64,000 nucleotides of DNA from a virus. Lineage: Duplodnaviria > Caudoviricetes. The translations under genes were made by a program, and so were the position numbers. Below the pieces are notes generated by a model. That model saw only the letters and a program-made list of their open reading frames with translations, searched no databases and was not told the origin of the DNA. The stretch is from the IMG/VR virus record IMGVR_UViG_3300000478_000013, positions 29,514 to 93,513 of that record; one strand, written 5' to 3'. Of the stretch, positions 8,062 to 23,137 are shown one piece after another; within the stretch, counting starts at the first letter, position 1; the number at the start of each line of letters is the position of its first letter.

Positions 8062-8070
8062 GGTACCCCC

Positions 8071-8316
8071 ATGTCCAACCACACTAACTACAGGAGAGGA
8101 GAAAAACACCGAACGGAAAACGGACCCAGGCATGAGTCACAAAATCCAGGGAAAGGGTGTAATTCTACCCATGTGGCCAAGGCGAGGTCAGACTGGAAAA
8201 AGAGATTCCACAGAGCGCAACGACGCACAAGCGGAAAGAGTACAGGTGGGTCGTTTAGGAAAGGCCAAGAACTAGAGGACCCTACCTTATCTATTGAGGA
8301 GGATTCAAATGAATGA
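8071..8316 (+). CDS. Small basic hypothetical protein
   Basis: ORF filling the operon gap. Confidence 0.5.
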   Translation: MSNHTNYRRGEKHRTENGPRHESQNPGKGCNSTHVAKARSDWKKRFHRAQRRTSGKSTGGSFRKGQELEDPTLSIEEDSNE

Positions 8317-8548
8317 GGTAGGAAAAGATCTACCGGCCCTGGTTGCACTGGTACGAACACAAGACAGACTGTATAGGCAAAAGCCAGGAATCAAACTAGA
8401 CGTAGATGTGTACGCAAGCAGGTTTAGTAGTGAAGACTCTAGAAGACTATGTCGTGCTATCCTCGGGGATGCGACTGACACTTCTCCTGAAGTCAAGGCT
8501 AAGGCTGATGCGATAAAGAGGTTGGCGTTAGGTAACAGCGCAATTTAA
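8309..8548 (+). CDS. Hypothetical protein
   Basis: GGAGG upstream of ATG 8309. Confidence 0.55.
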   Translation: MNEVGKDLPALVALVRTQDRLYRQKPGIKLDVDVYASRFSSEDSRRLCRAILGDATDTSPEVKAKADAIKRLALGNSAI

Positions 8549-8552
8549 CATT

Positions 8553-8640
8553 GGAGGGATGGCTGAGTGGTCGAAAGCACTCGACTTGAAATCGAGCGTA
8601 CCTGAAGGTACCGTGGGTTCGAATCCCACTCCCTCCTCCA
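8553..8640 (+). tRNA. tRNA-Ser (TGA)
   Basis: GGAGGGA/TCCCTCC acceptor, CTCGA-CT TGA AA-TCGAG, long variable arm GTACC/GGTAC, CCA. Confidence 0.95.
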
Positions 8641-8652
8641 GAAAGGTATCAC

Positions 8653-8883
8653 ATGTTTGGCAACAAAGCACTGGTTCTAGATGAGTTTAGAATTCTCCTG
8701 TCTGCTAAGATAGGATACGAGGAAAAGACGGGTCACGTTTCTTCGCCCCAGGCGCTGACTCATGTAGCTACTCATATGGGCGTGGCGGAGTCACTTGTTC
8801 TCCTTTGGGTACAGGGTCTCGCCAGACCAACCCCTTACGAAGAAAACATGGCTCTTTCCTTGATTAAGGCAGTTCACTCGTGA
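8653..8883 (+). CDS. Small possible HTH protein
   Basis: VATHMGVAESLVLLWVQGLARP resembles a Cro/XRE HTH. Confidence 0.45.
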   Translation: MFGNKALVLDEFRILLSAKIGYEEKTGHVSSPQALTHVATHMGVAESLVLLWVQGLARPTPYEENMALSLIKAVHS

Positions 8884-9047
8884 AACTCACGCTAGAAGCG
8901 GCCGAAAGAATAGCCAAGAAAGTAAACGAGAAGCTTTCTAGCTGGGACGTACCCGTATCTATTCGACCTGGAGTTGTCATTATGATATCTCTGGTGGTCC
9001 GTGAACTCAGAGCCGAGGCCAAGAGCCAGCAAAATACAGACGACTGA
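8880..9047 (+). CDS. Small hypothetical protein (55 aa, not in ORF track)
   Basis: GTGA-coupled start, MKLTLEAAERIAKK...TDD*, ends just before a hairpin. Confidence 0.5.
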   Translation: MKLTLEAAERIAKKVNEKLSSWDVPVSIRPGVVIMISLVVRELRAEAKSQQNTDD

Positions 9048-9049
9048 CC

Positions 9050-9081
9050 CAAAATGGGCACCTACGTAGGTGCCCATTTTG
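9050..9081. terminator. Perfect 32-bp palindrome, probable intrinsic terminator
   Basis: CAAAATGGGCACCTAC|GTAGGTGCCCATTTTG. Confidence 0.7.
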
Positions 9082-9102
9082 CTTTAACCCATAGGGAAAT
9101 AG

Positions 9103-9282
9103 ATGAAATATCTCACAAGTGAACTTGAGGACCATTTTGAAAATAGTATAGACCTCTACTGCCAGAGAATGGAAGAGGGGGACATGGACATGGCGGCTGC
9201 GGCTGCTGCACATGCCGAGCACTACTTAGAGGCGCTCTACTTAGCACAACAGCTACAGACTCTCCTCTCCCCCGAGGTCTAG
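9103..9282 (+). CDS. Small hypothetical protein (59 aa, not in ORF track)
   Basis: MKYLTSELEDHF...LLSPEV*; stop overlaps the stop of the convergent gene (CTAG). Confidence 0.5.
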   Translation: MKYLTSELEDHFENSIDLYCQRMEEGDMDMAAAAAAHAEHYLEALYLAQQLQTLLSPEV

Positions 9283-9842
9283 TTCTCCGAGTCGTCTTTT
9301 CCGAAAATTACGTATAACTTACGGTCAGCCAGAGACATGAGAGAGTCAGCGGAGCCTTCTTCTTCCCACTTTAAAAGTAGGTCTTCTACGGAGAAACTTT
9401 TACCAAGGCTAGTCTGGTTTCTCGTGGTCTCTAGTAGAGAAGCAAACGCGTCGAAGTCTTTCGACATAATCAAGTAAACCTTCCTAAGCCCATCATTGGA
9501 CAAGGATCCCGCTACCTTATAGGCGTTGCTGCCCATTTGATTTACGTAACCTCTGGTTACTCCTCGTTTTTTCACAAACTCAGGAAACAAACCAGACTGA
9601 ATAAGAGCGGATTCACCCATAGACTTCCAAAGATTGAAGCGGCTCGGGGCCGGTGCCTCAGCCGCTTCAATCATTTGGTCGACAAGTGGGGCCAGACTTA
9701 CGTTGTTACTCACAACCTGCCTAGCCAACAAATCTACAATGTAAAACTCTATCCAAGCCTCTAGGTGTAGTTTGACCCTAGCAGAAGCCTTTTTGATAGC
9801 TTCGTAGAAGAACAACTTAATGTCTGCTGCGTTAGAGTCCAC
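9279..9842 (-). CDS. Conserved bacterial-type hypothetical protein
   Basis: FYIVDLLAR...MGESALIQSGLFPE...RGVTRGYVNQMGSNAY resembles an uncharacterised proteobacterial/myxobacterial family (from memory). Confidence 0.55.
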   Translation of the reverse strand: MDSNAADIKLFFYEAIKKASARVKLHLEAWIEFYIVDLLARQVVSNNVSLAPLVDQMIEAAEAPAPSRFNLWKSMGESALIQSGLFPEFVKKRGVTRGYVNQMGSNAYKVAGSLSNDGLRKVYLIMSKDFDAFASLLETTRNQTSLGKSFSVEDLLLKWEEEGSADSLMSLADRKLYVIFGKDDSEN

Positions 9843-12800
9843 TGAGGTCGATGTCTAGGTTGTCTGCGTTGAGGGCGTCTAGGGCTTTCTGTATCTTTGG
9901 AACCAAGGCAGTGTAGGCGCTGACCAGATCAGGTCTACCCTTTCTCTCCAGAACCTGGGTGAAAGCGTTGGCATTTGGTACCTCGTTGGCAGTAAGCCAC
10001 TTAAGCGCCAGGTCATAGAGCTGCTTGCGCTTCTCCAGCGTGAGGGAGGCGGGACCTGTAGGGGCAGGTGCTTGTGGGGCAACAGGGGCAGGTTTCTCTT
10101 GAATCTGCTGAAGTTGTGCCTTCAGTGCGTTTATGGCGTCTGACGCTTCTCCCTTTGTTGGAGAGTCTCCAACACTCACTAGAGGAGTTTCTCCTGACGA
10201 AGAAATTTCCTCTGAGAGAGTCTTTATCTTCTCCACCTGCTTTGGAGTCGCCTCGTCATTTCTCCAGTCACCAGCAGGCCTCTTCTCTGTACTCTTGGGT
10301 GCAGGCTGGGACGTCAGAGGGTCCCTACCCTCTTGTACTAGACGAAGATAGGTTGTAAGACCTTGGACATACTTCTGGAAAACGTTCTTCGTGTCTTCAT
10401 CCAGGGAGTCCCTGTTGCTCTTCCAAAAAGAAGACAAATCTTCGTACGTCTTGCTTTGTATTTGTCCTACAGCCTGATCTAGCTGCTTAGACTCACTGGG
10501 AGACAGCCCCACCGCCCTCGATATAAAGGAATATCTCTCTACCCCAACAGGAAGGGTAGCTAGTGGTTTGGGCATCCTGCCTCTTGGGCGAGACTCTGGT
10601 TCAGGCATGACTGGAGTCTGTGGTGTAGCAGCCTCCCCGGCAGGTGCGGGTGCGGGAGCCGCAGCCTGTGGAAGCTGCAGTACTCTGACAGAAACCACGG
10701 GGGTTCCGTCTTCCGTCACAGGAAGGAACGTAGCGTCTTCCTCTGTGCCCGAGAATTCTGTTCCTTGTACAGCGACAAGTCCCTCCTCGATGCCTTGAAG
10801 TATGGCGTTCTTGGCCACGTCACGGTCGACGATCCCCTCAAGTCTTCTGATAAACTCTACTATTCCAAGATCTGCTCCCTTTTGCGCTCGCATGCCTGCA
10901 CGGAGCACGCTGTGAAGCATGTCGTCAGGGACCTCCGAACGGAAAGTGGGAGAGAAGGACATCTTCTCTGGTTCTGGCACTTCGACTTCCGCTTCATCTG
11001 ACTCAGAAGGAAGCACAACGTTATTAATTTCGGACGAAGGGATTCCATTTTCATTCAGGTAATCAACTATGTCCTGAGCAATGATTTCAAGCTGAGGGTT
11101 CTTTGCCTTACGCAACTTGGATAGAACTTGGTCCACGCCAAGTTCCTGCATCTTCTCCAAGATGAATACTGCGTTAGCCCTTTCCTGATCGTCAAAATCA
11201 AACTCGTTGGCCATCTGCTCAAAGATGACCTTGTACAGGTGGGTCCTGTCTGCTGATTCTGGCTCGTCTTGCTCTTCATCTTCCCCTGAAAGGAACTCTA
11301 CTGCGTCTGACGCCTCCTCTGGAAGGTCTATGCCAGTTTCCTTGATGTCTTCTATGAACTCGTCAACGTCCACGAAAGACGGACCAGGCTCCGGCATGGA
11401 ATCATCCATGTCATCAAACTCTTCCTGAAGATCCTCCTCAGAAATGCCTAGGTCCTTGGCCATGGCAGCGTCGTTGGGCACGCCATCCTTGCTTACGTAA
11501 GACTCTCTTCCCTTTAGAGGAGGTAGAGTTATACCCTTAGCGTCAGGGGAACCATCCTCAGACACGAGACCCTTACTGACCAAGAACTTGGCGACAGCAG
11601 AAGGTATGCCTTCTATATCTGTACCTTCGGAGCTGTTTACTACCTTCTCAAGTCCTTCCTTGCCTGGATTCTCCTTGATGGCCCTTATGATGTCGGCAAA
11701 TAGGTTCGAGTGGAATTCGTCAAGCTCCTTCTCTTCCACCATGTCCTGGAACACTGTCTTCTTGGCCTTATCCTTTTCTGCCTTAGAAAGGTCTTCTTCC
11801 GCAGAAGCGTACGGATTCTTGAAAGCCACCCCCGTAAGAGAACTAAGATCTGGTATTCCTGGAACCCCAGACTCATACTTACTCTTGTTCTTGCCAATGT
11901 GACGAAGTATCTTGACCACAATTTCATTGAGGTCAGGACGAGACTTGAGAAGCGCACCTATCAACTCTGCGGCGGTCTTTCCGCTTTCGGTCATCCGCAG
12001 CTGAACAGAACTCAGTATGTTGTTGGCCGTCTCTGCCTCGGCCTCTGACAGCCCCTGTTCCTCTATGAAGTACTCGAATCCCTTGCTCCATCTGGATATA
12101 GGGGTGCGTTCCACATTTACGCTGTCTACTTCGTCCTGTTCTGAAGGAGAACCTGCGTCTGGAGCGCCGGGACCAAACACGGACGACAGTCCGTAGTCGT
12201 TCCTCATCTTTGAAAGAGGCCGGGTCTTGTTTAGACGAGTAATGAAGTTCCTCATCTTCTGGAAGAGGTATAGGTAGCTGTACGGAGCAGATTTGCTCAT
12301 ATCCATAGACTCGAATTCAGACTCCATGTCGTCCAAACTCATGTCGTACATGGCAAATTCGCTCATCCTATGAAGCATGTCCAGTACACGCTCTCGCGTA
12401 TCCTTGGCAGATTCTACAGCTTCGTCGGGGCCCGCTTCATCCTTTAGTTCCTTTTGTATGGAATCGATAAGAGGATTCAGCTGAGCATCTAGAGGGAAGT
12501 GTCCCTTTACGTCCTCATAGGAAGGAAGCTTGTGTTCCCCAGTGTACAACGATTGGAAGTTCCACCCTTCATCACTCTTGATCTCGCTGTGCTGGTTGAT
12601 AAACAGACCCAGTCGTGTGGCAAGGGCCAGAACTCCCTTTCCTTCGATAGACTTGGACCGTCCTAGGCCTTTAACTATCTCCGAAAGTGGCTTGCCGTTG
12701 GATACCATTCTTATGATATCGTTAAGCTTTTCCGCCTCGTCCTTTGACAAACCTGGCTGTGCGTTGTGAAGCGCCTCTGCTGACTTAGCCCTGTCAGACA

Positions 12801-15800
12801 AGTCCACAGGGGCAAACCCACTACCTCCAGGAAGAGATTCCAACGGAACAACACGCAATGGTTTCTGAAGGTCGGACAGATCCCAGTTGCCCTTGTCCTT
12901 TCTAAGGTCCTCCGCGTTCTCCAGCAGGAACTTAACGACCGACTTTATGACGGCAGACTGATTGGATAGTGTGTTGGAGGCAGGTAAGCTAGGAGAGAAC
13001 TTCCTTACGTCTCCACCGTTCTTAAAGTGGTTACGAAGGGCCAACATCAGTATCTTAAAGTTTCGTATCCTAGCATCGTACGAAGCTTTACTCTCGTCAG
13101 GGTCGGGGGGCAGAGCTACAGCCTGTAGTTCTTCCAATAGGGACCTTCTGACCTCTGGTGCGGTCTTGCTGAGAGGAGCAAAGGTGGCTCCGTCTGTCTC
13201 CGCCTTCTCTTTGGCATATTGCTTTATGGCGTCCACTACAGCAGCAGCTGCACTATCGGACTCCATCATGTCCTTATAGTACCTATCTAGCGCAGCAACA
13301 GCTGCGTCAGGGAGATTTTTCTTGTGTGGAGCTATAGACCTTAAGAAGTCTTCGGGAGTAATAGTACCGTCAGTAAACTGGACTACTAGCCTCTCCGGAC
13401 TAACAGAGGTCTCCTTCTTAGGTCTCGCCTTAGGTGCTTCCTTCTTACCTTCTTGCTCCCTCGACGGATTTTTGATGCTCTTTACTGGCTTTATCTCTTC
13501 TTGGAGAGGACGATAGGTGTCCTCTTCTCCTTCTGGGAGCACGGGAGGAGCATACCCAGGAGTCTTGGACGGCTTGCTAATCTCGAACATGTTGTCCAGA
13601 TTGTAGGTTCCATCTCCTCTCTGGAATTCGTCACGGTCCGATAGGAAATCATTAACCTTGGTAAGGGTTTCTAACTCCTTCGAAACAGGGTGTTCTGATA
13701 TTTTGCTCTTTACCTTTTCCTGTATGTGCTCTATCAGGTTTTTAAGGTATTCCTTCTTTTCCTCTGCTTCAGCTTCCTGCGTCGCTAGGGTGTCCTTCAC
13801 CTTTGTGAAGTTTGACTCTAGCTCCTTTATCTTTTGGTTTACCTGACGAAGCTCTGTTCTAGTTTTCTTTCCGGAAAATGATACGGCTTCTCGTCTTAGC
13901 TCCTTCAGCGTTTCCTTTACTTCTTCGATGTCCTCTCGGATAAGTTCACGCGCTTGGATCATATCCTCCTGGTCTGCATCCGCCAGGTAGGCGTACTCCT
14001 TGTACACGGATAGAACAAAAGGGTCAAGCGGTGCTCTCGTGGCACCAGACTCGTCTGTCTCTCCCTTCTCCAAGGAAGAGATACCAGAGGGACCAAGCAG
14101 AGCGGATAGAGATTCTCCCCCTCCCTTGGTAGCAGCAAGTATTTCTGTGAGTGCCTTTAGTTTCTCCTTGGAAAGGGTGATCCTACTCTGGTACTCCTTT
14201 CCTGCCTCTTCCACGGCCCTTTCTCTTATTTTGTCCCGCTCCTTCTTAGCAGACACTATGTCTGCATCTATACCAGTTAGGGCAGATCTTGTTTTCTCTA
14301 CCGCGTCTTGTACTGATAGAAGATCTTCTCTTCTTTTCCTGGTCTTCTCCTCCATGAGAGAGGACCCCTTCTCTATAAGAGCGGATATCGCACGTTCCCT
14401 CTTATCCAAGAGAGCACTGAAGTCCTTTCCACTCACGTGGTTGTCTAGAGCTTCTTGCATAAGACTCTTGAGCAGGTCCTTGTCCACGCCGGGTATAGAA
14501 GTGGACATCTGGTCGAAGAGGGGCTTTTTGTTGAGAAGCTCTTGTTCTTCCTTCTTTTTATCCAGCTCCTTCTTTTTCTCCTCTACCTTAGTCTCATCTA
14601 CCTTGTACTCATCCCTTTCTATCTGAAGCATTTCATCAGCTAGTGTTTGAGACTCCTGCTTTTGAAGGAAGAACTGGGTAAAGCTGGGGTACTTGCTCTT
14701 GAAAAGAGCATCGTTCTTCTCCATGAGAGAGAAAAGTGCGTTGGAAAACTTGGATACGGCACGGTTGTAAGTCTTAGACACCAGGTCTATGATCTTCTCG
14801 TCGACCTCGTCATCACCTACGTCTGCACCAAATTCCTCTACAGCTATCTCCTGTAACCTCTCTCCAACACTATACGCTGGCTTTGTGCCCGCAGGGATGG
14901 AGTCCTTTAAGTTATCTACCTCGTCATCGTCTAGATGGTCTCTCCTAAGAAGACCTGGGACTCCCCATACCCAACGAAGAATGTTTTCCTCGTCAGGTTT
15001 CATAGATATCCGCATGAGAATAGAGTTTAGGAGGTTTTGTACCTTGTCAGTCTCTGGGTCCTCGGACCTAAGGAAAAGTAGGACCTTGTCCCTCTCGGTG
15101 TCTCCCTTGCTTACAAGCACCTTCTTCAGCGGAAGAAGAGAACGCTTCAGAGCGACGTCATCCTTTGCCTTCTCCCTAAGGATAGACATCAGGGACTCTA
15201 CTGCCCCTTTCTTCCTTCTCTTCATGTCACTTAGTGACTCTGATCCTGAGAAGGGCTCCATGGAGCCTATCTCCTGTAATGAAAGGACTGCGTTGTTAGC
15301 TTGCCCTATGCCAAGAATTCCTGATAAAAGTGCCCTGTCTTTCTCGTCCAGCCTAGGGTCATCCTGAGTCAGGAGTATGTCTGCAATGACCTCCAGTGTG
15401 TGAGATACATTCTCTTCTGACAAGGCAGCCATCTCTTGAGAAAGGGGGTCTGCGTCCTGGTCGGCTACCATGTCTACCACCGATACGTCTTCTTCGTCGT
15501 CTCCTGTGGTTATGGTAGGTGTAACAAATCTCTTGGCCTTTATTTTCTGAGTGTAAGATATTACTACCTTATCTCCGCCATTTTTAGGAGAAAATTCCAA
15601 AACACCAGACTCAGGGAAAGCAAGATATTCGTCTTTTCCTATCGAAACTCCCTGTGTGTCTGAGTTTCTGGTAAGAACCCTTAGCTTCTTGCCACGGTAG
15701 TATTCATCAAGCCAAATGATGCCTGAAGAAGGAGCAAAGAAGAATATGTCCTTGTTTCCCTTCAGCTTGTTTTTGCTCTCTGTTGTGTGTGACTGTCCCT

Positions 15801-17613
15801 CAGCCATTTCCAGCCTGACGTCACGCTCCGGGTCGATAACAGATATTTCACTAGTTCTTCCTGGTTGTGGCCCTACCACTATTTTTACGCGAGAAGACTT
15901 CTTTCTTCCTTCTTCCTCGGTTGGAAGAAGGTTTGCATTGGCTGGGGTAAATTCCTTGTTGTCAGGACCTACTACCTTTAGGTTATCTGTCCTAAATCCA
16001 GTTACTCCTATCTCCACTCTTCCACCGTTCTCTGGAATAGTGAGAGTCTTGGTCCCTGCACGTGATACGGTGTCCTTTACCTCGCTCACCGCTTGATTGT
16101 ACACCTGACGAAGAGCGGACCTTACGTTAGCAAGAAGGGGAGATCCGTGAAGACGGAAATCCACAGGATTGGGTATCTTTTCCTTGTTCCTCTTCTCTCT
16201 ATCAAAGTTGAGTACCGCTTTTCTGAACTCGTTGAGTGCAACAGAATGCAGCTCTGCCATACCTATGCTGGCTTTGTCGAAGACCTCTGCTATGGGGCGG
16301 AAAGACTTGAGTGACGTACCAGGAAAATAGGTCTGTGGGTCAAGTATCGCACCTATGAGCATGGCGGTGTAGTACTTGGAAAAGTCTACCATGTCCTCTT
16401 CCAGCGAGGATGCCTCCTGCCGTACGGACTTCATGTATTTGAGTGTGTCCAGGTCAAGAACTCTAGACCCTGACTCACCGAACTCAGGAAAGTCTTCATC
16501 ACCCTCCTGCGTCTGTAGGTCGTAAATTCTCTCAGAAATGAGAGAAGCCAGTGAATACATTCCAGATAGCTTTGGAGAAATTTCCGAGCTTACGAAATCG
16601 CGCAGAGTATCCCTGTTGTCCTGAGACGGGTTACTCTCCACCTTGTGCAGTAGATGCTCAAAGTCAATTAACTCTCCAGTTATGTCCGGAATTGAGGCTA
16701 ACGCTTCTTTCCTCTTTTCATCTGAGCTAATGCCGGAGGCCTTCTCGTGCATAGAGTCTATCTCAGACTCTATCAAAGGAATGAGTGTGTCTATGACAAA
16801 TTCTGGGTTGGGGTGAGACAGTATTTGTGTCCAAAGGTCTGATGCCTTGTCCTTGAACGATTCTATCCTGTCGAACTCCTCCTGGCTGTCCAGCTGGACT
16901 CTCTTCTTGTTCTCCTTGCCCGTAAGGAAGAATTCTATGCGAAACTTCTTTCCTTTTGCGCCTTCTGGCCAGTGGAGCATGCCCGTCTGGTAGTTGTACA
17001 CTACCTCCCCAGAAGAAGGGGTCTTGCTGGTCCCTGGCCGTACCTTGTACTCAGGGCCGCTATCATCGTCACCACCTACTTCAATAACACGAATTCCCTT
17101 CCGTAGGTCCACTCCCTTTTCGAGCTTGGTCTTCAGGCTGTTGTTGACTGTGGTCGTCTCGGCAAGAGGCTCAAAGTGGAACCAGTCAGACTCCAGGGAC
17201 CATTGACCCTCGTTCTTCTTCGTTTGTGATTTAGTGGAGGTCTCCTCTTCCTCTTCGTCGTCATCATCAAGAAGGTCGTCGTCTGACTCTTCCTCCGTTT
17301 CCTCCTCGGCATCCTCTGCCACCTCTCGCCAGTCGTAAGACACAACAACCTTGCGTCCAGAGTCCTTATCGGAGAAAAACAGAACCCCGTCCTCTGGAAG
17401 AAGGAAGAACGTTTCCTTTTTTAAGGAAGATGAATCTGTAGGAGTGAACTCTTTGTTCGTCTTGAGTTCCACAACAGAAACAGAAGAAGGGTTTATGTTT
17501 CCATTCTTCAGCTGCACTTCTCCATCGTCAGGGATAGTGAGTGTTTCTTTTTCGGCTTGTGGTTTAGACGGATCAGCGAGAACAAGTCTTGGAAACGTAA
17601 TAATTTGGGCCAT
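9832..17613 (-). CDS. Giant 2593-aa multidomain protein with sigma70-like regions, decoration-like beta domains, coiled coil and helical repeats; probably virion-associated
   Basis: Single uninterrupted ORF at the distal end of the head block; see findings. Confidence 0.8.
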   Translation of the reverse strand: MAQIITFPRLVLADPSKPQAEKETLTIPDDGEVQLKNGNINPSSVSVVELKTNKEFTPTDSSSLKKETFFLLPEDGVLFFSDKDSGRKVVVSYDWREVAEDAEEETEEESDDDLLDDDDEEEEETSTKSQTKKNEGQWSLESDWFHFEPLAETTTVNNSLKTKLEKGVDLRKGIRVIEVGGDDDSGPEYKVRPGTSKTPSSGEVVYNYQTGMLHWPEGAKGKKFRIEFFLTGKENKKRVQLDSQEEFDRIESFKDKASDLWTQILSHPNPEFVIDTLIPLIESEIDSMHEKASGISSDEKRKEALASIPDITGELIDFEHLLHKVESNPSQDNRDTLRDFVSSEISPKLSGMYSLASLISERIYDLQTQEGDEDFPEFGESGSRVLDLDTLKYMKSVRQEASSLEEDMVDFSKYYTAMLIGAILDPQTYFPGTSLKSFRPIAEVFDKASIGMAELHSVALNEFRKAVLNFDREKRNKEKIPNPVDFRLHGSPLLANVRSALRQVYNQAVSEVKDTVSRAGTKTLTIPENGGRVEIGVTGFRTDNLKVVGPDNKEFTPANANLLPTEEEGRKKSSRVKIVVGPQPGRTSEISVIDPERDVRLEMAEGQSHTTESKNKLKGNKDIFFFAPSSGIIWLDEYYRGKKLRVLTRNSDTQGVSIGKDEYLAFPESGVLEFSPKNGGDKVVISYTQKIKAKRFVTPTITTGDDEEDVSVVDMVADQDADPLSQEMAALSEENVSHTLEVIADILLTQDDPRLDEKDRALLSGILGIGQANNAVLSLQEIGSMEPFSGSESLSDMKRRKKGAVESLMSILREKAKDDVALKRSLLPLKKVLVSKGDTERDKVLLFLRSEDPETDKVQNLLNSILMRISMKPDEENILRWVWGVPGLLRRDHLDDDEVDNLKDSIPAGTKPAYSVGERLQEIAVEEFGADVGDDEVDEKIIDLVSKTYNRAVSKFSNALFSLMEKNDALFKSKYPSFTQFFLQKQESQTLADEMLQIERDEYKVDETKVEEKKKELDKKKEEQELLNKKPLFDQMSTSIPGVDKDLLKSLMQEALDNHVSGKDFSALLDKRERAISALIEKGSSLMEEKTRKRREDLLSVQDAVEKTRSALTGIDADIVSAKKERDKIRERAVEEAGKEYQSRITLSKEKLKALTEILAATKGGGESLSALLGPSGISSLEKGETDESGATRAPLDPFVLSVYKEYAYLADADQEDMIQARELIREDIEEVKETLKELRREAVSFSGKKTRTELRQVNQKIKELESNFTKVKDTLATQEAEAEEKKEYLKNLIEHIQEKVKSKISEHPVSKELETLTKVNDFLSDRDEFQRGDGTYNLDNMFEISKPSKTPGYAPPVLPEGEEDTYRPLQEEIKPVKSIKNPSREQEGKKEAPKARPKKETSVSPERLVVQFTDGTITPEDFLRSIAPHKKNLPDAAVAALDRYYKDMMESDSAAAAVVDAIKQYAKEKAETDGATFAPLSKTAPEVRRSLLEELQAVALPPDPDESKASYDARIRNFKILMLALRNHFKNGGDVRKFSPSLPASNTLSNQSAVIKSVVKFLLENAEDLRKDKGNWDLSDLQKPLRVVPLESLPGGSGFAPVDLSDRAKSAEALHNAQPGLSKDEAEKLNDIIRMVSNGKPLSEIVKGLGRSKSIEGKGVLALATRLGLFINQHSEIKSDEGWNFQSLYTGEHKLPSYEDVKGHFPLDAQLNPLIDSIQKELKDEAGPDEAVESAKDTRERVLDMLHRMSEFAMYDMSLDDMESEFESMDMSKSAPYSYLYLFQKMRNFITRLNKTRPLSKMRNDYGLSSVFGPGAPDAGSPSEQDEVDSVNVERTPISRWSKGFEYFIEEQGLSEAEAETANNILSSVQLRMTESGKTAAELIGALLKSRPDLNEIVVKILRHIGKNKSKYESGVPGIPDLSSLTGVAFKNPYASAEEDLSKAEKDKAKKTVFQDMVEEKELDEFHSNLFADIIRAIKENPGKEGLEKVVNSSEGTDIEGIPSAVAKFLVSKGLVSEDGSPDAKGITLPPLKGRESYVSKDGVPNDAAMAKDLGISEEDLQEEFDDMDDSMPEPGPSFVDVDEFIEDIKETGIDLPEEASDAVEFLSGEDEEQDEPESADRTHLYKVIFEQMANEFDFDDQERANAVFILEKMQELGVDQVLSKLRKAKNPQLEIIAQDIVDYLNENGIPSSEINNVVLPSESDEAEVEVPEPEKMSFSPTFRSEVPDDMLHSVLRAGMRAQKGADLGIVEFIRRLEGIVDRDVAKNAILQGIEEGLVAVQGTEFSGTEEDATFLPVTEDGTPVVSVRVLQLPQAAAPAPAPAGEAATPQTPVMPEPESRPRGRMPKPLATLPVGVERYSFISRAVGLSPSESKQLDQAVGQIQSKTYEDLSSFWKSNRDSLDEDTKNVFQKYVQGLTTYLRLVQEGRDPLTSQPAPKSTEKRPAGDWRNDEATPKQVEKIKTLSEEISSSGETPLVSVGDSPTKGEASDAINALKAQLQQIQEKPAPVAPQAPAPTGPASLTLEKRKQLYDLALKWLTANEVPNANAFTQVLERKGRPDLVSAYTALVPKIQKALDALNADNLDIDLSGL

Positions 17614-17629
17614 TTGCTAAGCCTCGAAG

Positions 17630-18262
17630 TTAAAATCCAGGGATAGGGGTGCCTGTACCTGGGGCACCAGAAGCTCCTGCTCCCGGAATCTCTGGTACCT
17701 CTTCTGAAATACCCTCTTCTTCAGACTTCTTTTTCTTGTCTTTGCCCCCTACTTCCTTAGAAGGAAGCTCGTGTTCCACTGGCTTTGCCTTTTCTTCTTT
17801 GTGGACTTTTCCAGATAGTGTGCTTAGCGTTTTGGTCAACTGCTTCAGGTCTGCTATCTTGGTTGCTTCTGCTTTTATCAGGTCGGCAAGCTCGCCTAAC
17901 GCAGACGCCTTGATGCCGGGTAGATCGTCTTCATCTGTCTGAAGTATCTTCGACAACTCTTGACCGGACTCCTCAAGCTTGGCAGCCAGCTTGTCCGTCA
18001 GACTGGACATTTCCTCCACGGCTTCCTTGAAGGGATGCTTTTTTGGCAGTGTTCGCATAAGCGCCAAAAAGCTATCCGCATTCTCTTCCAGCATGGATAG
18101 AGATGTATCCTGTACCTTTATTTTCTTCAGTAGGGGTGAATCTATCCCGTGAGGCTTAGAATTTGATATGGCCTCTATCACCCTTGCAATTCTTTTTTGA
18201 ATGGCAGGAGGGGAGTTAACGTATACAAACCGAAGTTTAGCTTGTGCGTTCTTAGTCATCAT
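17630..18262 (-). CDS. Probable internal head protein
   Basis: Helical, charged; in head block. Confidence 0.55.
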   Translation of the reverse strand: MMTKNAQAKLRFVYVNSPPAIQKRIARVIEAISNSKPHGIDSPLLKKIKVQDTSLSMLEENADSFLALMRTLPKKHPFKEAVEEMSSLTDKLAAKLEESGQELSKILQTDEDDLPGIKASALGELADLIKAEATKIADLKQLTKTLSTLSGKVHKEEKAKPVEHELPSKEVGGKDKKKKSEEEGISEEVPEIPGAGASGAPGTGTPIPGF

Positions 18263-21132
18263 CGACCCTTAGGTAAGTCCCTTACTTGTGTCACAAGCTG
18301 GTCGTTCATAGGAGGCGGACCTCCTACTTGGTCAGGGTACGGACCTGGGGGATACCCATTTCCTCGCTCCTTACCGTTTTCTGGTCTGTTGGGAAGTGGG
18401 TTCACAAGGCTGTCCGCCGTGATATCCTCTGCCACCTCTCCGTGTTCCGCGGCAGACTCTACGTCAGACTCTTCCATTTCTCTCAGAAGAGAGTCATGAA
18501 GTGGTGACACCACTACTTCGAACCCGTTGATCGATGAAGGAACTTCCTTCTTCATGGCCCTTGGCATGGTAGTGTGCAGATAAAGAATAGGTTTACCATG
18601 AGGGGATAAATCGCGCCTCACATCCTTCACCCGTGGGTCTCCCTTAAACATATTCCTTAGCTTAATAACGGCCTCGTCTACCTCTTCTTCTGCTGCCCCT
18701 GATGGTGCAGAGGGGTCCCTCGGCAAGTTCATGAACTTTAGCCCAGGACGCGCTTTTTGACGGATGTCGTCTACTATCTCCTTTTCTACAAAGTCCTCAG
18801 TAGACTCCTCTTCCTTGGGGGCATCTGGGTTCAACATAGGCCTGTCGTTGACCACAAAAACACTACCACTGTCCTGGGTGGCAGGACCAGATACAGGCGC
18901 CCCGCCCGGAGGAGGGCTACTCACGGGGGCGACTGGCGGGAGGAAAGGGAGGTGCCCACCTCCTGGGGGATTGACAGCAGGAGGAACCTTCAGTGTGACG
19001 TCTCCTGGAAAACGACCAAACGGTGGAGGTTCAAACGCTTCTGGAGGAGGCGGAGCAGATACGGACTTAGGTACCTGAACGATGTAGTAAACGTCATCCT
19101 CTCCGATGACATGTGCGAAGGGGGGAGGTCCTTCAGGCACAGGTGGCATCCCCATGAATTCTGGGGGTGGCGGCATGTGATCGTGTGGAACAGGTGGCAT
19201 CGAAGGACCCATTTCTGGAGGACATGCAGACCGTAACCATGCTTTCTTTATCTCTATTTCTTTTCCGTTGTCTATCCTACGAACCTTATACGCAGGACTC
19301 TTGTTGGCTTGTCTGACAACTTCCACAAGCTCCACCATAGTGGTCTCGCCTGTATCTGGATCCTTCTCCATCCATTGCTGCCCTACTTCAGGAACCACAC
19401 CAATAGCCCCATTTGCGTATCTGATGATGTCCTTCTTGGACGCTATAAAAATGTGAGCAGAAACTCTAAGCCTATCAGACAAGGCGGCTACTCTTGACCT
19501 AAGTGGGTCATCGGTGGCTAGGTTACTGACCACATCCGCCAGTTTTTGAGACCCCTCTAGTGACATTACGCTGGGAACTCTCTCTACCTTAGATGGAGAT
19601 GCAGGTATATAGGTAAGAGCCACACGAAAAGCAGAGTACTTGCTGATGGGGAAGTCTGTGTATCGGTATATACCGAAGTCTTTTTCAATGAACTGGTCAG
19701 CATCCTCCATAATTTGGAATACTTCTACCTTGTACCCAAACTCGCCCTTGACTTCCTCAAGGAAAAAAGACACGTCCTCTTCTCTATCAAATGGAATGTC
19801 GTAGGTAAGGTGCTTTGTCTTGACGGCGTTCTTCTTGCGAAGAAAGTCCCTAAACTCAGGATCCCGAAGAGCGTTGCCGGTAAAAGTTACACGCATTACC
19901 GGACCTGCGGTTTTTACTGTTGATGCATTCTTCGGCATTCTTTCACCTTCGCCAATAGTTTCTAACAACGCCTTGTCGGCCGCTATTACATAATTACCAC
20001 TAATTAATATGGGTTCGTTTGCCACTAGATATATTTTGTATTGGAATTTTCCTCTTCTCTTAGAGGAAGGGTACTGGTCCAACAAAGTTTCAATCGTGTC
20101 GTCGACCTTAACTCCATAGTAAAGGTCTCCTTTCCTACGATTGGATTCCACGAGTAACATACGAACAAACGGGTCGGACTCAGCAAGCTCCTCAATCTGA
20201 GCCAGGTGTTCCTTGCTAGACAGCTTCTGTATGTCTTTTATCTTTGCCGCCTCTTTCAACGTGACGTAACTAGCACACTTGACATAGCTGCCCTGACTCC
20301 ACCGGAACGAAGGGCAGTTTTTGTCTCCTACGCGGCAGAAGGCAAACCTATCTGTTACCTTAGTAACCTTTTCTGGCAGACGAAGGTCTGGGCAATCATC
20401 CTTTTCTACCTTCCAATTACCCTGAGCCCCCATGTAAGCGGGGATTAGCCCTATCTCTTCTACGTAGTAGTTCTTTATCTTGTCTGCTGCATCCGCTATT
20501 CTTTGAGCAGATAGAGGCATGTTTCTTTTGCGCAGAAGAGATTCTACTTTGATTAGGACATGGTGTGGGGACAACATTTCTGCTACCTTGAGGGAGGATG
20601 TGCCTTCGTTTAGAGCAGAAGTTTCTTCTTCCAAGTACTCAGACCACTTCGATAAGACGGACTCTCTGACAGAAGGCCAGAAGCTGTCTATGTAGTTCCA
20701 ATAAGGTCTCACCTTCTCCAAGAAACCTGCCTCTACAGGTATCTTGTTTGACTTCTCTCTCATTGTACGTACGGTGTCAGACTCAAGCTTTGCATACTTT
20801 GTGTACGCCTTTGTCACCACCTGAAGAACTTCATCTAGTATTTCATTTTTCTCTTTGTTATCAAGTACTTCATCAAACACCACGGCGGATAATCCGACAC
20901 GAATTTTGTCTATCGCTTCTAAGTGTGTGTCGATCTTGGGGAGTAGTGACATCTCTTTAAGATCAATGAAGAACTTTTTGGCCTCCTCTACATCATCCTG
21001 AAGTGCAACCACGGAAGGAATTAGATGAACCAGGTGCTGAGCCACACCCTCTTTTATGAGGGCGTCCCAGTCCGCCTCCGATATCTCCAGAAAGGCTATA
21101 GCCAGGTCTTTTCGCTTGTCCTTGTCAGTCAT
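18259..21132 (-). CDS. 957-aa multidomain probable internal head protein with Pro-rich segment
   Basis: Long ORF with ATGA coupling; small domains separated by K/R-x-A motifs. Confidence 0.6.
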   Translation of the reverse strand: MTDKDKRKDLAIAFLEISEADWDALIKEGVAQHLVHLIPSVVALQDDVEEAKKFFIDLKEMSLLPKIDTHLEAIDKIRVGLSAVVFDEVLDNKEKNEILDEVLQVVTKAYTKYAKLESDTVRTMREKSNKIPVEAGFLEKVRPYWNYIDSFWPSVRESVLSKWSEYLEEETSALNEGTSSLKVAEMLSPHHVLIKVESLLRKRNMPLSAQRIADAADKIKNYYVEEIGLIPAYMGAQGNWKVEKDDCPDLRLPEKVTKVTDRFAFCRVGDKNCPSFRWSQGSYVKCASYVTLKEAAKIKDIQKLSSKEHLAQIEELAESDPFVRMLLVESNRRKGDLYYGVKVDDTIETLLDQYPSSKRRGKFQYKIYLVANEPILISGNYVIAADKALLETIGEGERMPKNASTVKTAGPVMRVTFTGNALRDPEFRDFLRKKNAVKTKHLTYDIPFDREEDVSFFLEEVKGEFGYKVEVFQIMEDADQFIEKDFGIYRYTDFPISKYSAFRVALTYIPASPSKVERVPSVMSLEGSQKLADVVSNLATDDPLRSRVAALSDRLRVSAHIFIASKKDIIRYANGAIGVVPEVGQQWMEKDPDTGETTMVELVEVVRQANKSPAYKVRRIDNGKEIEIKKAWLRSACPPEMGPSMPPVPHDHMPPPPEFMGMPPVPEGPPPFAHVIGEDDVYYIVQVPKSVSAPPPPEAFEPPPFGRFPGDVTLKVPPAVNPPGGGHLPFLPPVAPVSSPPPGGAPVSGPATQDSGSVFVVNDRPMLNPDAPKEEESTEDFVEKEIVDDIRQKARPGLKFMNLPRDPSAPSGAAEEEVDEAVIKLRNMFKGDPRVKDVRRDLSPHGKPILYLHTTMPRAMKKEVPSSINGFEVVVSPLHDSLLREMEESDVESAAEHGEVAEDITADSLVNPLPNRPENGKERGNGYPPGPYPDQVGGPPPMNDQLVTQVRDLPKGR

Positions 21133-22102
21133 AGCTTACTTCGAGTAGGTACAGGTAGGCAGAATCCATATCCCTGTCATGTATCATCCTCATGAGATCT
21201 GGGGGTACATTCTCTTCTACAGATCCTGACTTTTTTGATGTAAGTCTAGCCTCTATAAAAGAGGCATACCTGTAGGCGGCAGTAGCAGCCTTCTTCTGTC
21301 CGCCTGCTTCCGCCTTCTTCCCAAGAGTAACAAGACCTCGTTTTGCTTCCTTGAGACCCAGAAGCTCCTGCCCGGAAGAGGCAACTCGTGTAAGAATGGA
21401 GTTGGCTATTCCTCGTGTATCCAGTACCAGGTCTATGTTGTCGTAGAAGCACTCGTTTATGCGGGTCTCTAGGTCTGAGCCACGGATGTCTTTCAAGAGA
21501 ACAGAGTCAGGACCTAATTCCTTTAGCAGCTCTCCGGCAATTACTTCCTTCAGTTGCCTTATTTCAGGCCTTTGGTGTAGCTTCAGCCTAACCAGAACTC
21601 GGGTAGCTATGCGCCTAAACTCGTCCCAGTCCGCTTCTCCTGCGATGCGCACTAGCTCTTCCGCTTCGTCCGTAAATCCGGACTCTCTTAGTTCTTTGGC
21701 AAGAGAAGAAATCATGATGGGTTGAGTTCCTGGTGAAGGTATACCTACATAAGAAAGGTTTTGGCTTGGAGTTCCTAGGGGTCCCTTGTTTTGTTTGGAC
21801 CTGGATTGCTGTCTGGCCTTTTCTCGTAGCTCCGTTGCCCTTCTTTTCTGTCCCTTGGGCCACAGCTCACAAATTATCTCTGTAGCGTCAGGGTCTTTGG
21901 ACAGCTTCTTGTACTGTACACCGTTTTCGTTTAGGTCGTCGAAAAATGCTTTAGGAGAGTGGTCTCTGTCTTTTCTAAACTTGAGAACTATGGTCTTCAG
22001 CCCGGTCTGAGGGTCTGATATGGAGCGCATGTCAATATACCTAAGGTGGTGAGCCTTAAGTAGTTTTGTAGCTATTGCTCTTATGTCCACAGCAGAGGGC
22101 AT
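21125..22102 (-). CDS. Probable internal head protein
   Basis: Contains SSLAKELRESGFTDEAEELVRIA helical motif. Confidence 0.55.
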   Translation of the reverse strand: MPSAVDIRAIATKLLKAHHLRYIDMRSISDPQTGLKTIVLKFRKDRDHSPKAFFDDLNENGVQYKKLSKDPDATEIICELWPKGQKRRATELREKARQQSRSKQNKGPLGTPSQNLSYVGIPSPGTQPIMISSLAKELRESGFTDEAEELVRIAGEADWDEFRRIATRVLVRLKLHQRPEIRQLKEVIAGELLKELGPDSVLLKDIRGSDLETRINECFYDNIDLVLDTRGIANSILTRVASSGQELLGLKEAKRGLVTLGKKAEAGGQKKAATAAYRYASFIEARLTSKKSGSVEENVPPDLMRMIHDRDMDSAYLYLLEVSYD

Positions 22103-22480
22103 TCATTCGCCTCTACGAGTTCTATTGAAAAGATCGGCAAGACGAGAAAGCCTGAGTTCTTCGTCGTCTATCTCTTGTATAGCCTCAAGCTCCTTCTTTA
22201 CTTCTTCTTCCTTCTCTGCCGCCTGCCTAATCTCTTCTTCAGCTTCTTCGTGGACCCTTTGTAGGTCCTCCCTGAGCTTCTCTTCTTTTCTTCTGATCTT
22301 GTCATCTGTTGGTGCCTCCTTCTTTCTTCGACCAAAGAGAAAGAACACACCAGAAACTGTGACAATGGCCGCAACAACGTACCCCCATACCTTCTTAGAA
22401 AGGTCTGGCTTAAACTTGTGCAGCAGCAGAAGCACCAAGGCCGCTACACAGAACATTATCAGTAGAGATAGAGTTTGCAT
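22103..22480 (-). CDS. Membrane-anchored coiled-coil protein
   Basis: Two N-terminal hydrophobic segments followed by a highly charged helix. Confidence 0.6.
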   Translation of the reverse strand: MQTLSLLIMFCVAALVLLLLHKFKPDLSKKVWGYVVAAIVTVSGVFFLFGRRKKEAPTDDKIRRKEEKLREDLQRVHEEAEEEIRQAAEKEEEVKKELEAIQEIDDEELRLSRLADLFNRTRRGE

Positions 22481-22481
22481 G

Positions 22482-22901: not shown

Positions 22902-23137
22902 TATAGAATCCGGGTTACGTCCCTTAGCCTCTTGGCTATGGACACTAGAGAGTAAGGAGATATACCGTTTTTATTACAGGCTCGTTCAAAGTGAGATTTA
23001 GCCTTTTTCCATTGGTCAGTCAAAGACTTGGACTCGTATATATCATCTGCAAACTTTCTCAGCACACTCTTCCAGAGTTCTGTTGCTTCTGGATTTATGG
23101 AAGACGGAGGGTTCTTGTATGATGGTGCCTTTTTCAT
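22901..23137 (-). CDS. Small ChaB-like helical protein
   Basis: PEATELWKSVL...DQWKKAKSHF...C...PY shared with 25622-26464. Confidence 0.5.
   Translation of the reverse strand: MKKAPSYKNPPSSINPEATELWKSVLRKFADDIYESKSLTDQWKKAKSHFERACNKNGISPYSLVSIAKRLRDVTRIL

What the first reader, a model, noticed from the sequence alone, without database searches (positions are those of the whole stretch)
14720..16320. Sigma70-like regions 2, 3.2 and two region-4 units embedded in a 2593-aa head-block protein
Seen in sequence, in sigma order: FRPIAEVFDKASIGMAELHSVALNEFRKAVLNFDREK...DF...VRSALRQVYNQ (about aa 435-515; cf. region 2 VxxIAxxYxxxGxxxxDLxQEGxxGLxKAVxKFDxxR...F...IRxAI); TPTITTGDDEEDVSVVDMVADQDADP (cf. 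region 3.2 xPIGxDEDSxLxDFIxD); LDEKDRALLSGILGIGQANNAVLSLQEIG...KKGAVESL (cf. region 4 LxxRExxVLxxRFGL...TLxEIG...KALxKL); and a second unit MKPDEENILRWVWGV...LQEIA...YNRAVSKF. The aromatic promoter-melting residues of region 2.3 look degenerate. Inference: a possibly virion-delivered sigma or sigma-mimic that engages host RNA polymerase. I do not recognise this architecture from described phage proteins.
Basis: partly seen in the sequence, partly recalled or inferred. Interest (0 to 1): 0.85.

Follow-up and report, generated by a model that had tools for sequence, protein, structure and literature searches.

The report
Sigma-factor module inside giant phage protein
A 2,593-residue protein encoded with the head genes of an uncultured phage of about 390 kb contains a very divergent copy of the sigma-factor parts that grip bacterial RNA polymerase, so it may be a polymerase-hijacking factor carried in the virus particle, but neither binding nor packaging has been shown.

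Summary
All the quoted motifs sit in one real, conserved 2593-aa gene (9832-17613, minus strand). Pfam, NCBIfam, PHROGs, PDB sequence searches and Foldseek see no sigma factor. Profile-profile comparison with real sigma alignments does. Out of the whole protein it picks the two main claimed stretches, in sigma order. Aa ~440-503 match regions 2.1-2.4 (E 2e-4). Aa ~695-809 match regions 3.2-4.2 (E 6e-5 to 2e-4). Windows elsewhere score 0.017 or worse and reversed controls 0.008 or worse.

AlphaFold models agree. For the domain-2-like part, the 15 best of 48,161 PDB representatives are all sigma domain 2 or AR9 gp226 (Z 5.3-7.2). For the domain-4-like part, 16 of 17 helical matches are named sigma region-4 chains (Z 5.6-7.8). 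Nested Ig-like beta domains stand where domain 3 would be. The second region-4 unit has only weak support.

The family has about 16 clusters. Its members are always giant and, in every locus read, lie in the same gene block. Two complete relatives (392 and 424 kb) show no polymerase gene and encode an ordinary sigma factor. Polymerase binding and virion packaging are untested.

This scan has noted similar giant sigma-like proteins in other jumbo phages. I found no published description.

The parts
9832..17613 (-). Giant gene, 2593 aa (P0001). It is conserved over its full length in 10 close homologues (2191-2813 aa) and about 16 clusters at 50% identity.
17335..17553 (-). Beta domain 1 (aa 21-93), the same unit as beta domains 2 and 3. 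It is weakly similar to part of the 235-aa virion structural protein at 34878-35585.
   Evidence: hhalign self-comparison E 5e-6, 5e-5 and 8e-4; BLASTP E 0.007; phrog_16710
16930..17166 (-). Beta domain 2 (aa 150-228), after an acidic linker.
16075..16419 (-). Sigma-domain-2-like helical domain (aa ~399-513). The conserved core motif reads DL-x-x-VAL-x-x-FR-x-A-x-L-x-FD, then F-R-x-x-x-N-P.
   Evidence: AF2 models; VIA-align: top 15 chains are all sigma domain 2 or AR9 nvRNAP chain A, Z 5.3-7.2; ESM Atlas shape search: Sigma70_r2 clusters, TM 0.45-0.54; hhalign against diverse sigmas, regions 2.1-2.4, E 1.8e-4, probability 48%
15538..16068 (-). Nested pair of Ig-like beta domains (aa 516-692) in the place of sigma domain 3. 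The outer domain is split (523-558 and 653-687) by an inner one.
   Evidence: AF2 strands at model residues 105-280; matches to phage neck, portal and tail Ig-like domains, Z up to 8.2; internal repeats
15448..15537 (-). Acidic, predicted-disordered linker (aa 693-722) that aligns with the sigma region 3.2 'finger' segment.
   Evidence: pLDDT below 50 at model residues 282-310; hhalign alignment begins at aa 695
15142..15447 (-). Sigma-domain-4-like helix-turn-helix domain, unit 1 (aa 723-824).
   Evidence: VIA-align: 17 matches, 16 of them named sigma region-4 chains, Z 5.6-7.8; hhalign against 77 SigA sequences E 5.6e-5, probability 66%, 86 columns; against diverse sigmas E 1.8e-4; language-model neighbours are all Sigma70_r4 clusters, score 0.87
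14719..15036 (-). Possible second region-4-like unit (aa 860-965) with long loop insertions. It holds the most conserved motif of the whole protein, DEENILRW-x-W-x-x-PG.
   Evidence: hhalign against sigma region 4: E 9e-4 and 0.021; against unit 1: E 0.0075; invariant columns 874-887. No structure search covered it.
13624..14646 (-). Lys/Glu-rich, proline-poor segment (aa ~990-1330). It is probably long helices or coiled coil (inference).
   Evidence: composition; only weak coiled-coil-type Pfam noise
9835..13623 (-). C-terminal 1260 aa. It is conserved and mostly helical by sequence appearance, with no recognisable family.
17630..21132 (-). Upstream genes for 957-aa and 210-aa proteins. Their stop and start overlap by 4 bases, and 16 bases separate the 210-aa gene from the giant gene.
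   Evidence: same order in all 9 related loci read
9279..9842 (-). Downstream 187-aa gene that overlaps the giant gene's end by 11 bases. It is the last gene of the minus-strand block.
   Evidence: present in 5 of the 9 related loci

Best explanation
The giant protein carries a very divergent module of the sigma70 family. Its order is: a domain-2-like helical domain, two nested Ig-like beta domains where domain 3 would be, an acidic 3.2-like linker, a domain-4-like helix-turn-helix, and perhaps a second, insertion-rich copy of domain 4.

Inferred, not shown: the module docks on the core of the host's RNA polymerase at the sites that sigma uses, the beta-prime clamp helices and the beta flap. 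It therefore either competes with host sigma or positions the rest of the giant protein on the polymerase. The usual aromatic residues that melt the -10 element are missing, so canonical promoter opening is unlikely.

Also inferred: the gene is co-transcribed with the head genes and shares a beta domain with a virion structural protein. The product is therefore probably packed in the capsid and ejected with the DNA, where it could capture host polymerase at the start of infection. The ordinary sigma factor found in the phage's complete relatives would then serve later transcription.
For: SHOWN.
(1) The gene is real and conserved, and always giant. The exhaustive profile search found 16 clusters, none a free-standing form.
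(2) hhalign picks aa ~440-503 for sigma regions 2.1-2.4 (E 1.8e-4) and aa ~695-809 for regions 3.2-4.2 (E 5.6e-5 and 1.8e-4). The two matches are collinear with sigma. They are the best windows of the whole protein, and reversed controls score no better than 0.0078.
(3) For the AF2 model of aa 372-520 (pLDDT 75, pTM 0.61), the 15 best of 48,161 PDB representatives are all sigma domain 2, a scaffold derived from it, or chain A of the AR9 nvRNAP entry. Z is 5.3-7.2 with 78-102 residues aligned. ESM Atlas shape-search rows 1-4 and 7 are Sigma70_r2 clusters.
(4) In the 573-aa model, 16 of the 17 matches to residues 307-417 are named sigma region-4 chains, Z 5.6-7.8. Sigma28 aligns over both domains.
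(5) The nearest named language-model clusters for aa 690-985 are all Sigma70_r4, at score 0.87, which counts as a lead only.
(6) Two complete relatives (392 and 424 kb) show no Pfam-detectable RNA polymerase and encode an ordinary sigma70-family protein. So sigma-type hijack of host polymerase is this lineage's strategy.
(7) The gene lies in the terminase-portal-protease-head protein block with overlapping or near-abutting neighbours. Synteny is conserved in 9 loci. Its beta domain resembles that of a virion structural protein.
Against: Pfam Sigma70_r2/r4 give no hit in any of 11 family members at E up to 10, nor in a six-frame search of the record. A family profile finds no sigma among PDB sequences. 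Foldseek finds nothing with either model.

All VIA-align Z scores are below 8, under the level at which the tool itself warns that helical models can match by common arrangement. hhalign probabilities are only 48-66%, and its E-values are for single comparisons. The models rest on 11 sequences, with pLDDT about 75.

The polar residues of sigma region 2.2 and the Trp-Trp pair of region 2.3 are not conserved. No evidence of any kind was obtained for polymerase binding, for packaging or for proteolytic release. Ig-like domains are more typical of exposed virion parts than of internal cargo.
Confidence: 0.45

Rival explanations
1. The sigma-derived module is real, but the protein is not packaged. 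It is made late with the virion genes and acts in the infected cell. It could be a giant late transcription factor, a sigma competitor that shuts off host or early transcription, or a tether between polymerase and the assembly or packaging machinery.
For: The sigma evidence is the same as for the best explanation. Position in a late operon shows timing, not packaging. T4 late factors gp55 and gp33 are a precedent for minimal, divergent sigma-like factors (established knowledge).
Against: A 2593-aa protein is an odd form for a late factor. The relatives already encode an ordinary sigma. The shared beta domain with a virion structural protein and the strict head-block synteny point to the particle.
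Confidence: 0.2
2. The fold descends from sigma but has been put to another use and no longer binds polymerase. The helix-turn-helix units could bind phage DNA inside the capsid or at the genome end. The domain-2-like bundle could be a structural or protein-binding spacer in a large internal or ejection protein.
For: The residues of regions 2.2 and 2.3 that contact beta-prime and the -10 element are not conserved (alignments). The helix aligned with the region 4.2 recognition helix is basic. The rest of the protein is long helical and beta modules with no enzyme signature.
Against: Both polymerase-binding domains are kept together with the 3.2-like acidic linker, in the right order. That is hard to explain if only a DNA-binding helix-turn-helix were needed. 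The best-conserved motif of the whole protein lies in a helix resembling region 4.1, which in sigma forms part of the flap-binding domain.
Confidence: 0.2
3. The resemblance is chance or convergent. A generic helical bundle and a generic helix-turn-helix happen to resemble sigma, and AlphaFold was nudged toward sigma-like folds by a few motif-level similarities.
For: Curated profiles and Foldseek find nothing. Z scores are below 8 and TM scores about 0.5. hhalign probabilities are below 70%.
Against: Two separate domains each return almost only sigma chains out of 48,161 representatives, in the right order along the chain. An independent library agrees. Profile-profile signals pick the same two stretches against two different sigma alignments and exceed every other window and every reversed control by more than tenfold.
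Confidence: 0.12

Closest known systems
Sigma70-family factors: two-domain and group 3 types (FliA/sigma28 6PMJ, SigB 8X6G, SigE, SigL, SigW) and the 3.2-4 part of group 1 (HrdB 7VPD, Taq SigA 4XLN)
   Same: It has a domain-2-like and a domain-4-like fold joined by an acidic 3.2-like linker, in the same order. The motifs resemble regions 2.1-2.2 and 4.1-4.2.
   Different: The module is buried at aa ~400-965 of a 2593-aa protein. Nested Ig-like domains stand where domain 3 would be. There is no Pfam-level match. The region 2.3 aromatics are replaced, with an invariant Pro. There may be a duplicated region 4. The gene lies in the head block.
AR9 gp226 and phiKZ gp68, the sigma-like fifth subunits of jumbo-phage non-virion RNA polymerases (PMC9209446)
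   Same: They are jumbo-phage proteins with sigma-like structure but vanishing sequence similarity. Chain A of the AR9 entry 7S01 is the second-best structural match of the domain-2-like part (Z 6.7, 89 residues). I take that chain to be gp226 from its length of 463 residues.
   Different: Those proteins serve phage-encoded multisubunit polymerases. None is detectable in the two complete relatives of this phage. They are about 460-520 aa and are not encoded among head genes.
T4 gp55 plus gp33, a minimal split sigma for late genes (established knowledge; discussed in PMC7824862)
   Same: They are very divergent phage proteins that occupy the beta-prime clamp-helix and beta-flap sites of host polymerase.
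   Different: They are small, separate proteins made to read late promoters, and they are not virion components. No comparison with them was run here.
Virion-packaged host-takeover proteins: T4 Alt, N4 virion RNA polymerase, the 'polyvalent proteins' of Iyer et al. 2017 (PMC5512222)
   Same: They are large proteins encoded in the morphogenesis block, proposed or known to be ejected with the DNA to jump-start transcription.
   Different: None is described with a sigma-like module; the word 'sigma' does not occur in PMC5512222. No hallmark polyvalent-protein domain (MuF, zincin peptidase, ART) was found here. Packaging is not shown.

Membership tests
Sigma70 family | Significant match to the curated region 2 profile (Pfam PF04542) | tested here: not met
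   There was no hit at E up to 10 in the protein, in the excised segment, in any of 11 family members, or in a six-frame search of the record. The same profile finds the ordinary sigma of the relatives at 1.4e-7.
Sigma70 family | Significant match to the curated region 4 profiles (PF04545 / PF08281) | tested here: not met
   There was no hit at E up to 10.
Sigma70 family | Profile-profile similarity to regions 2.1-2.4 | tested here: inconclusive
   hhalign against 20 diverse sigmas gives E 1.8e-4, probability 48%, 57 columns. It is the best of 63 windows, and the best reversed control scores 0.0078. Against 77 SigA sequences alone the match is not significant, E 0.085.
Sigma70 family | Profile-profile similarity to regions 3.2-4.2 | tested here: met
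   E is 5.6e-5 (probability 66%, 86 columns) against SigA and 1.8e-4 against diverse sigmas. These are the best windows of the protein, with controls at 0.011 or worse. The level is modest.
Sigma70 family | Domain 2 fold | tested here: met
   The top 15 of 48,161 PDB representatives are all sigma domain 2 or derived from it, with Z 5.3-7.2, rmsd 2.4-4.7 A and 78-102 residues aligned. About 22 of the 29 rows with Z of 5 or more are sigma chains. Atlas Sigma70_r2 clusters give TM 0.45-0.54. Caveats: this is a predicted model, Z is below 8, and Foldseek is silent.
Sigma70 family | Domain 4 fold (region 4.1 helix plus helix-turn-helix) | tested here: met
   There are 17 matches to model residues 307-417, 16 of them named sigma region-4 chains. 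Z is 5.6-7.8, 59-92 residues are aligned, and identity reaches 27%. It was tested only inside the 573-residue model.
Sigma70 family | Order domain 2, then 3.2 linker, then domain 4 on one chain | tested here: met
   The hhalign hits are collinear ('ALL' comparison). Sigma28 chain 6pmj_F aligns over both domains.
Sigma70 family | Conserved aromatic residues of region 2.3 that melt and read the -10 element | tested here: not met
   In the hhalign alignment the F-S-T-Y-A-x-W-W-I-R stretch faces F-R-x-x-x-N-P-x-x. An invariant Pro (P492) stands where the Trp pair would be, and no conserved aromatic pair is present.
Sigma70 family | Binds RNA polymerase core (beta-prime clamp helices, beta flap) | not testable with these tools
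Sigma70 family | Free-standing factor of roughly 170-650 aa | tested here: not met
   The exhaustive profile search found only proteins of 2071-2814 aa, plus fragments of 443 and 1490 aa and one unrelated 1797-aa protein that matches only the beta unit.
Virion-packaged takeover / polyvalent proteins | Encoded within the head-morphogenesis block | tested here: met
   synteny
Virion-packaged takeover / polyvalent proteins | Hallmark domains (MuF, zincin-like peptidase, ART, N4-type polymerase and others) | tested here: not met
   Pfam, PHROGs and NCBIfam found no such domain.
Virion-packaged takeover / polyvalent proteins | Physically present in virions and ejected | not testable with these tools
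   The phage is uncultured and known only from metagenomic contigs.
AR9 gp226 / phiKZ gp68 type sigma-like subunits | Partner phage-encoded multisubunit RNA polymerase | tested here: not met
   PF00623 and PF00562 give no match in the two complete relatives, while all 14 control genomes ring. Very divergent phage polymerases could still escape these profiles.

The most novel reading that the evidence does not exclude
A jumbo phage with no detectable RNA polymerase of its own packs a giant protein with a built-in sigma mimic into its head and ejects it with the DNA. The mimic seizes host core polymerase at the point of DNA entry. It then either starts early transcription from non-canonical sites or uses transcription to help draw in a genome of about 390 kb. 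This would be a third strategy beside injected polymerases (N4, phiKZ) and injected polymerase-modifying enzymes (T4 Alt). Similar giant sigma-like proteins noted by this scan in other jumbo-phage lineages would make it a widespread strategy.
Probability: 0.3. Interest if true: 0.9.

Novelty: new variant of a known kind. Interest (0 to 1): 0.7.

Why it matters
Most jumbo phages lack their own RNA polymerase and are thought to rely on host sigma for early genes and on their own free sigma factors later (PMC7824862, PMC13282480). A sigma-derived module fused into a 2,600-residue head-block protein is an architecture that neither the sigma literature nor the work on virion-delivered takeover proteins describes. 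If it binds polymerase, it shows a new way of capturing the host enzyme and would extend the known limits of sigma-family divergence, alongside AR9 gp226 and phiKZ gp68. The claim can be tested directly with a recombinant fragment of about 600 residues and core polymerase.

Tried and rejected
Searches that found nothing useful:
- tblastn of the giant protein against 50,697 phage records gave no match.
- Pfam, PHROGs and NCBIfam on the protein, its excised segments and its neighbours found no informative family.
- A family profile against PDB sequences gave only noise.
- Foldseek against PDB with both models had no match below E 0.009 and 0.48. SigE N-terminal domain appeared only at rank 21, E 1.7.
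- Foldseek against BFVD returned only generic beta-domain and structural-protein rows.
- The language-model search on aa 372-520 gave no usable hit.
- The promoter and terminator consensus scan of 8000-23000 was at chance level.
- No C-terminal tail motif is shared among the head-block proteins.

Weak or failed alignments:
- hhalign of the domain-2-like part against the phage's own sigma family, or against SigA alone, was not significant (E 0.08-0.15). Forced global alignment failed.
- An alternative local match of D-F-S-K-Y-Y-T (aa 410-416) to the sigma F-S-T-Y-A motif has E 0.19. I rejected it in favour of the collinear alignment.

Readings considered and rejected:
- Tape measure protein: rejected because of the beta domains, the acidic linkers and the position in the head block.
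- Giant polymerase of the N4 or crAss type: rejected because no polymerase profile or motif match was found.
Full report
THE GENE AND ITS SETTING

The finding lies inside one ORF, 9832..17613 on the minus strand, of 2593 aa. The window belongs to a 93.5-kb IMG/VR virus record that CheckV rates 24% complete, which implies a genome of about 390 kb.

On the minus strand the gene order is as follows:
- terminase (44886-46922), portal (41318-43666), prohead protease (40584-41315) and an HNH endonuclease;
- a 235-aa virion structural protein (34878-35585) and the major head protein (31792-32919);
- a second endonuclease, a 2H-phosphoesterase protein, a ChaB-domain protein and several unknowns;
- a 957-aa and a 210-aa protein, then the giant gene, then a 187-aa gene, after which the strand changes.

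Neighbouring genes overlap or lie 16 bases apart, so co-transcription with the head genes is likely. That is an inference. The terminase is about 30% identical to those of PaBG-like jumbo phages. The giant protein itself has no match among 50,697 phage records.

THE FAMILY

A word-indexed search found 10 homologues of 2191-2813 aa with 30-74% identity, alignable end to end. An exhaustive profile search of 1.84 billion representatives with the region aa 405-985 found 16 clusters. All are giant (2071-2814 aa) apart from two fragments. There is no free-standing form and no sigma factor among the hits.

In all nine loci that could be read, the order '~950-aa protein, ~210-aa protein, giant gene' is the same. 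The ~190-aa gene follows in five of them.

Two relatives are complete genomes of 392 kb and 424 kb, the latter with terminal repeats. Both encode an ordinary sigma70-family protein elsewhere. It matches Pfam region 2 at 1.4e-7 and PDB SigA/RpoS over regions 2-4 at about 1e-11. Neither shows a Pfam-detectable multisubunit polymerase. The T7-type profile also found nothing, but its control rang nowhere, so that search is uninformative. This lineage therefore appears to work through host polymerase.

CHECK OF THE OBSERVATION

Every quoted string is present at the stated place.

Standard tools do not see a sigma factor:
- Pfam gives nothing at E up to 10 for the protein, its excised segments or any of 11 members.
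- Six-frame searches of the record with Sigma70_r2 and r4 are empty, while the controls ring.
- A family profile finds no sigma among PDB sequences.

PROFILE-PROFILE TESTS

I built two independent alignments of real sigma factors. One holds 77 primary sigmas, fetched from bacterial genomes with a canonical sigma as bait. The other holds 20 diverse group 1 and group 3 sigmas, taken from five bacterial genomes with the Pfam region 2 profile. I compared both with a 22-member alignment of the giant family, using hhalign.

Results by segment:
- Aa 690-830 match regions 3.2-4.2. Against the primary sigmas, E is 5.6e-5, probability 66%, 86 columns. The alignment starts at R-F-V-T-P-T-I opposite the sigma P-V-S-L-E-T-P-I segment and runs through the helix-turn-helix. 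Against the diverse set, E is 1.8e-4.
- Aa 400-520 match regions 2.1-2.4 of the diverse set with E 1.8e-4, probability 48%, 57 columns. Against the primary sigmas alone the match is not significant, E 0.085.
- The second unit (aa 860-965) scores 9e-4 and 0.021 against sigma region 4, and 0.0075 against unit 1.

These E-values are for single comparisons, so I calibrated them with sliding windows over the whole protein. With the primary sigmas, the best of 72 windows are aa 666-806 and 701-841 (1.4e-4 and 2e-4). The best window that does not overlap the region scores 0.017, and the best reversed-sequence control 0.011. With the diverse set, the five best of 63 windows are those covering aa 361-561 (down to 2.3e-4, aligned to region 2) and aa 681-841 (1.5e-3 and 2.7e-3, aligned to regions 3.2-4). 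All other windows score 0.025 or worse, and the best reversed control 0.0078. After correction for the number of windows, the two signals remain at about 0.01 each. They are also collinear with sigma.

STRUCTURE

An AlphaFold2 model of aa 412-984 (11 sequences, pLDDT 76) shows five parts in order: a helical domain, a beta region of about 175 residues, a disordered acidic stretch, a helical domain, and more helices. Foldseek against PDB found nothing.

The exhaustive VIA-align search of 48,161 PDB representatives returned three groups of matches:
- The beta region matched Ig-like domains of phage neck, portal and tail proteins, with Z up to 8.2.
- Residues 307-417 of the model (aa ~718-828) gave 17 matches. 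Sixteen are named sigma region-4 chains: HrdB, Taq SigA, sigma-H, SigL, RpoS, SigB, sigma32, SigR, SigW, sigmaE, SigD, CnrH, BldN and others. Z is 5.6-7.8, and 59-92 residues are aligned.
- Residues 1-103 matched sigma domain 2 chains. Sigma28 aligned over both helical domains.

I then folded aa 372-520 alone (pLDDT 75, pTM 0.61). In the same exhaustive search the first 15 rows are all sigma domain 2, a scaffold derived from it, or chain A of the AR9 non-virion polymerase entry. Z is 5.3-7.2, rmsd 2.4-4.7 A, and 78-102 residues are aligned. The first unrelated chain appears at rank 16, and about 22 of the 29 rows with Z of 5 or more are sigma chains. From its length I take the AR9 chain to be gp226, which its authors call a likely sigma homologue despite vanishing sequence similarity (PMC9209446).

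Two further searches agree. An independent shape search of the ESM Atlas puts Sigma70_r2 clusters in rows 1-4 and 7, with TM by query 0.45-0.54. A language-model search with aa 690-985 returns only Sigma70_r4 clusters as nearest named neighbours, at score 0.87, which the tool rates as a lead only.

CAVEATS ON THE STRUCTURE EVIDENCE

All Z values lie under the level at which the tool warns that helical models can match by a common arrangement. Foldseek is silent for the single domain too. The models are predictions from a shallow alignment.

I give weight to three things rather than to any single score. Two separate domains each return almost nothing but sigma chains. They do so in sigma order. 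And the same two stretches are picked independently by sequence profiles.

WHAT DIFFERS FROM A SIGMA FACTOR

- The module is buried at aa ~400-965 of a 2593-aa protein.
- Where domain 3 would be there is a nested pair of beta domains. The outer one (aa 523-558 plus 653-687) is the same unit as two N-terminal beta domains at aa 21-93 and 150-228 (hhalign E 5e-6 to 8e-4). It also weakly resembles part of the 235-aa virion structural protein beside the head protein gene (BLASTP E 0.007, phrog_16710).
- The Trp-Trp pair and the other aromatics of region 2.3 are absent, with an invariant proline at that place. The polar residues of region 2.2 are not kept either.
- The most conserved motif of the entire protein, DEENILRW-x-W-x-x-PG, lies in the region-4.1-like helix of the second unit.
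- Downstream come a Lys/Glu-rich, probably coiled-coil stretch and 1260 conserved residues with no recognisable family.

HOW IT MOST LIKELY WORKS

Shown: a sigma-like module is present, the gene sits in the head block, and the two complete relatives show no polymerase gene and encode an ordinary sigma.

Inferred: the module docks on host core polymerase at the sigma sites. Without the melting residues it acts as a competitor or tether rather than a canonical initiation factor. The protein is packed in the head and ejected, so that host polymerase is captured at the start of infection.

My estimates:
- The module is sigma-derived: about 0.85.
- It binds polymerase: about 0.65.
- The whole chain including virion delivery: about 0.3.

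No test of binding could be run here.

COMPARISON AND NOVELTY

The closest known things are these:
- two-domain and group 3 sigma factors;
- the sigma-like subunits gp226 and gp68 of jumbo-phage polymerases;
- the split T4 late factors gp55 and gp33;
- as a functional analogy only, virion-delivered takeover proteins such as T4 Alt, the N4 virion polymerase and the 'polyvalent proteins'.

The polyvalent-protein survey never mentions sigma. Neither a comparative survey of 224 jumbo phages nor a 2026 review describes such a fusion. Two full-text searches found no report of a virion-associated or giant sigma-like phage protein.

This scan's own earlier notes describe analogous giant sigma-like proteins (785 to 3276 aa) in other jumbo phages. 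They are not in this family's hit list, so the theme may recur in several lineages. I did not test those notes.

Noticed in passing
27156-28616 (-) and 26464-27159 (-): A 486-aa head-block protein carries a 2H phosphoesterase domain (Pfam 2_5_RNA_ligase2 5e-14, LigT_PEase 1e-8, weak Acb1). The next gene encodes a ChaB-domain protein. Both lie between the head protein gene and the giant gene, and the phosphoesterase gene is also present in the 392-kb relative. They are candidates for packaged enzymes.
   Followed up: partly
30051-31739 (-), 38487-40481 (-), 33466-34845 (+): Two large HNH/homing-endonuclease genes (phrog_559 and phrog_3339, E 1e-28 to 1e-52) and a DUF559-containing gene are interleaved with the protease, head protein and structural genes.
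   Followed up: no
L009:1069-2421 (-) and L010:1048-2301 (-), in the 392-kb and 424-kb relatives: The complete relatives encode an ordinary sigma70-family protein of 410-450 aa with a long N-terminal extension of about 200 residues of unknown nature. It forms a family of more than 30 clusters in metagenomes, including Tara Oceans. No counterpart lies in the 93.5-kb record that holds the window, which is only about a quarter of the genome.
   Followed up: partly
34878-35585 (-) and the giant gene at aa 21-93: The 235-aa virion structural protein (phrog_16710) shares a beta unit of about 78 residues with the giant protein's N-terminus (BLASTP E 0.007). A separate 1797-aa metagenomic protein (P0060) carries eight copies of a related beta unit.
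   Followed up: partly
giant gene, aa ~2348-2402 (window ~10408-10572): A further weak resemblance to sigma region 4 appears near the C-terminus (hhalign E 0.017-0.029). It is no better than the reversed controls, so it is probably noise.
   Followed up: partly
whole window: None of the terminase, portal, protease, head protein or connector proteins reaches any Pfam family, although PHROGs recognises them. The head module is therefore very divergent from curated families.
   Followed up: no
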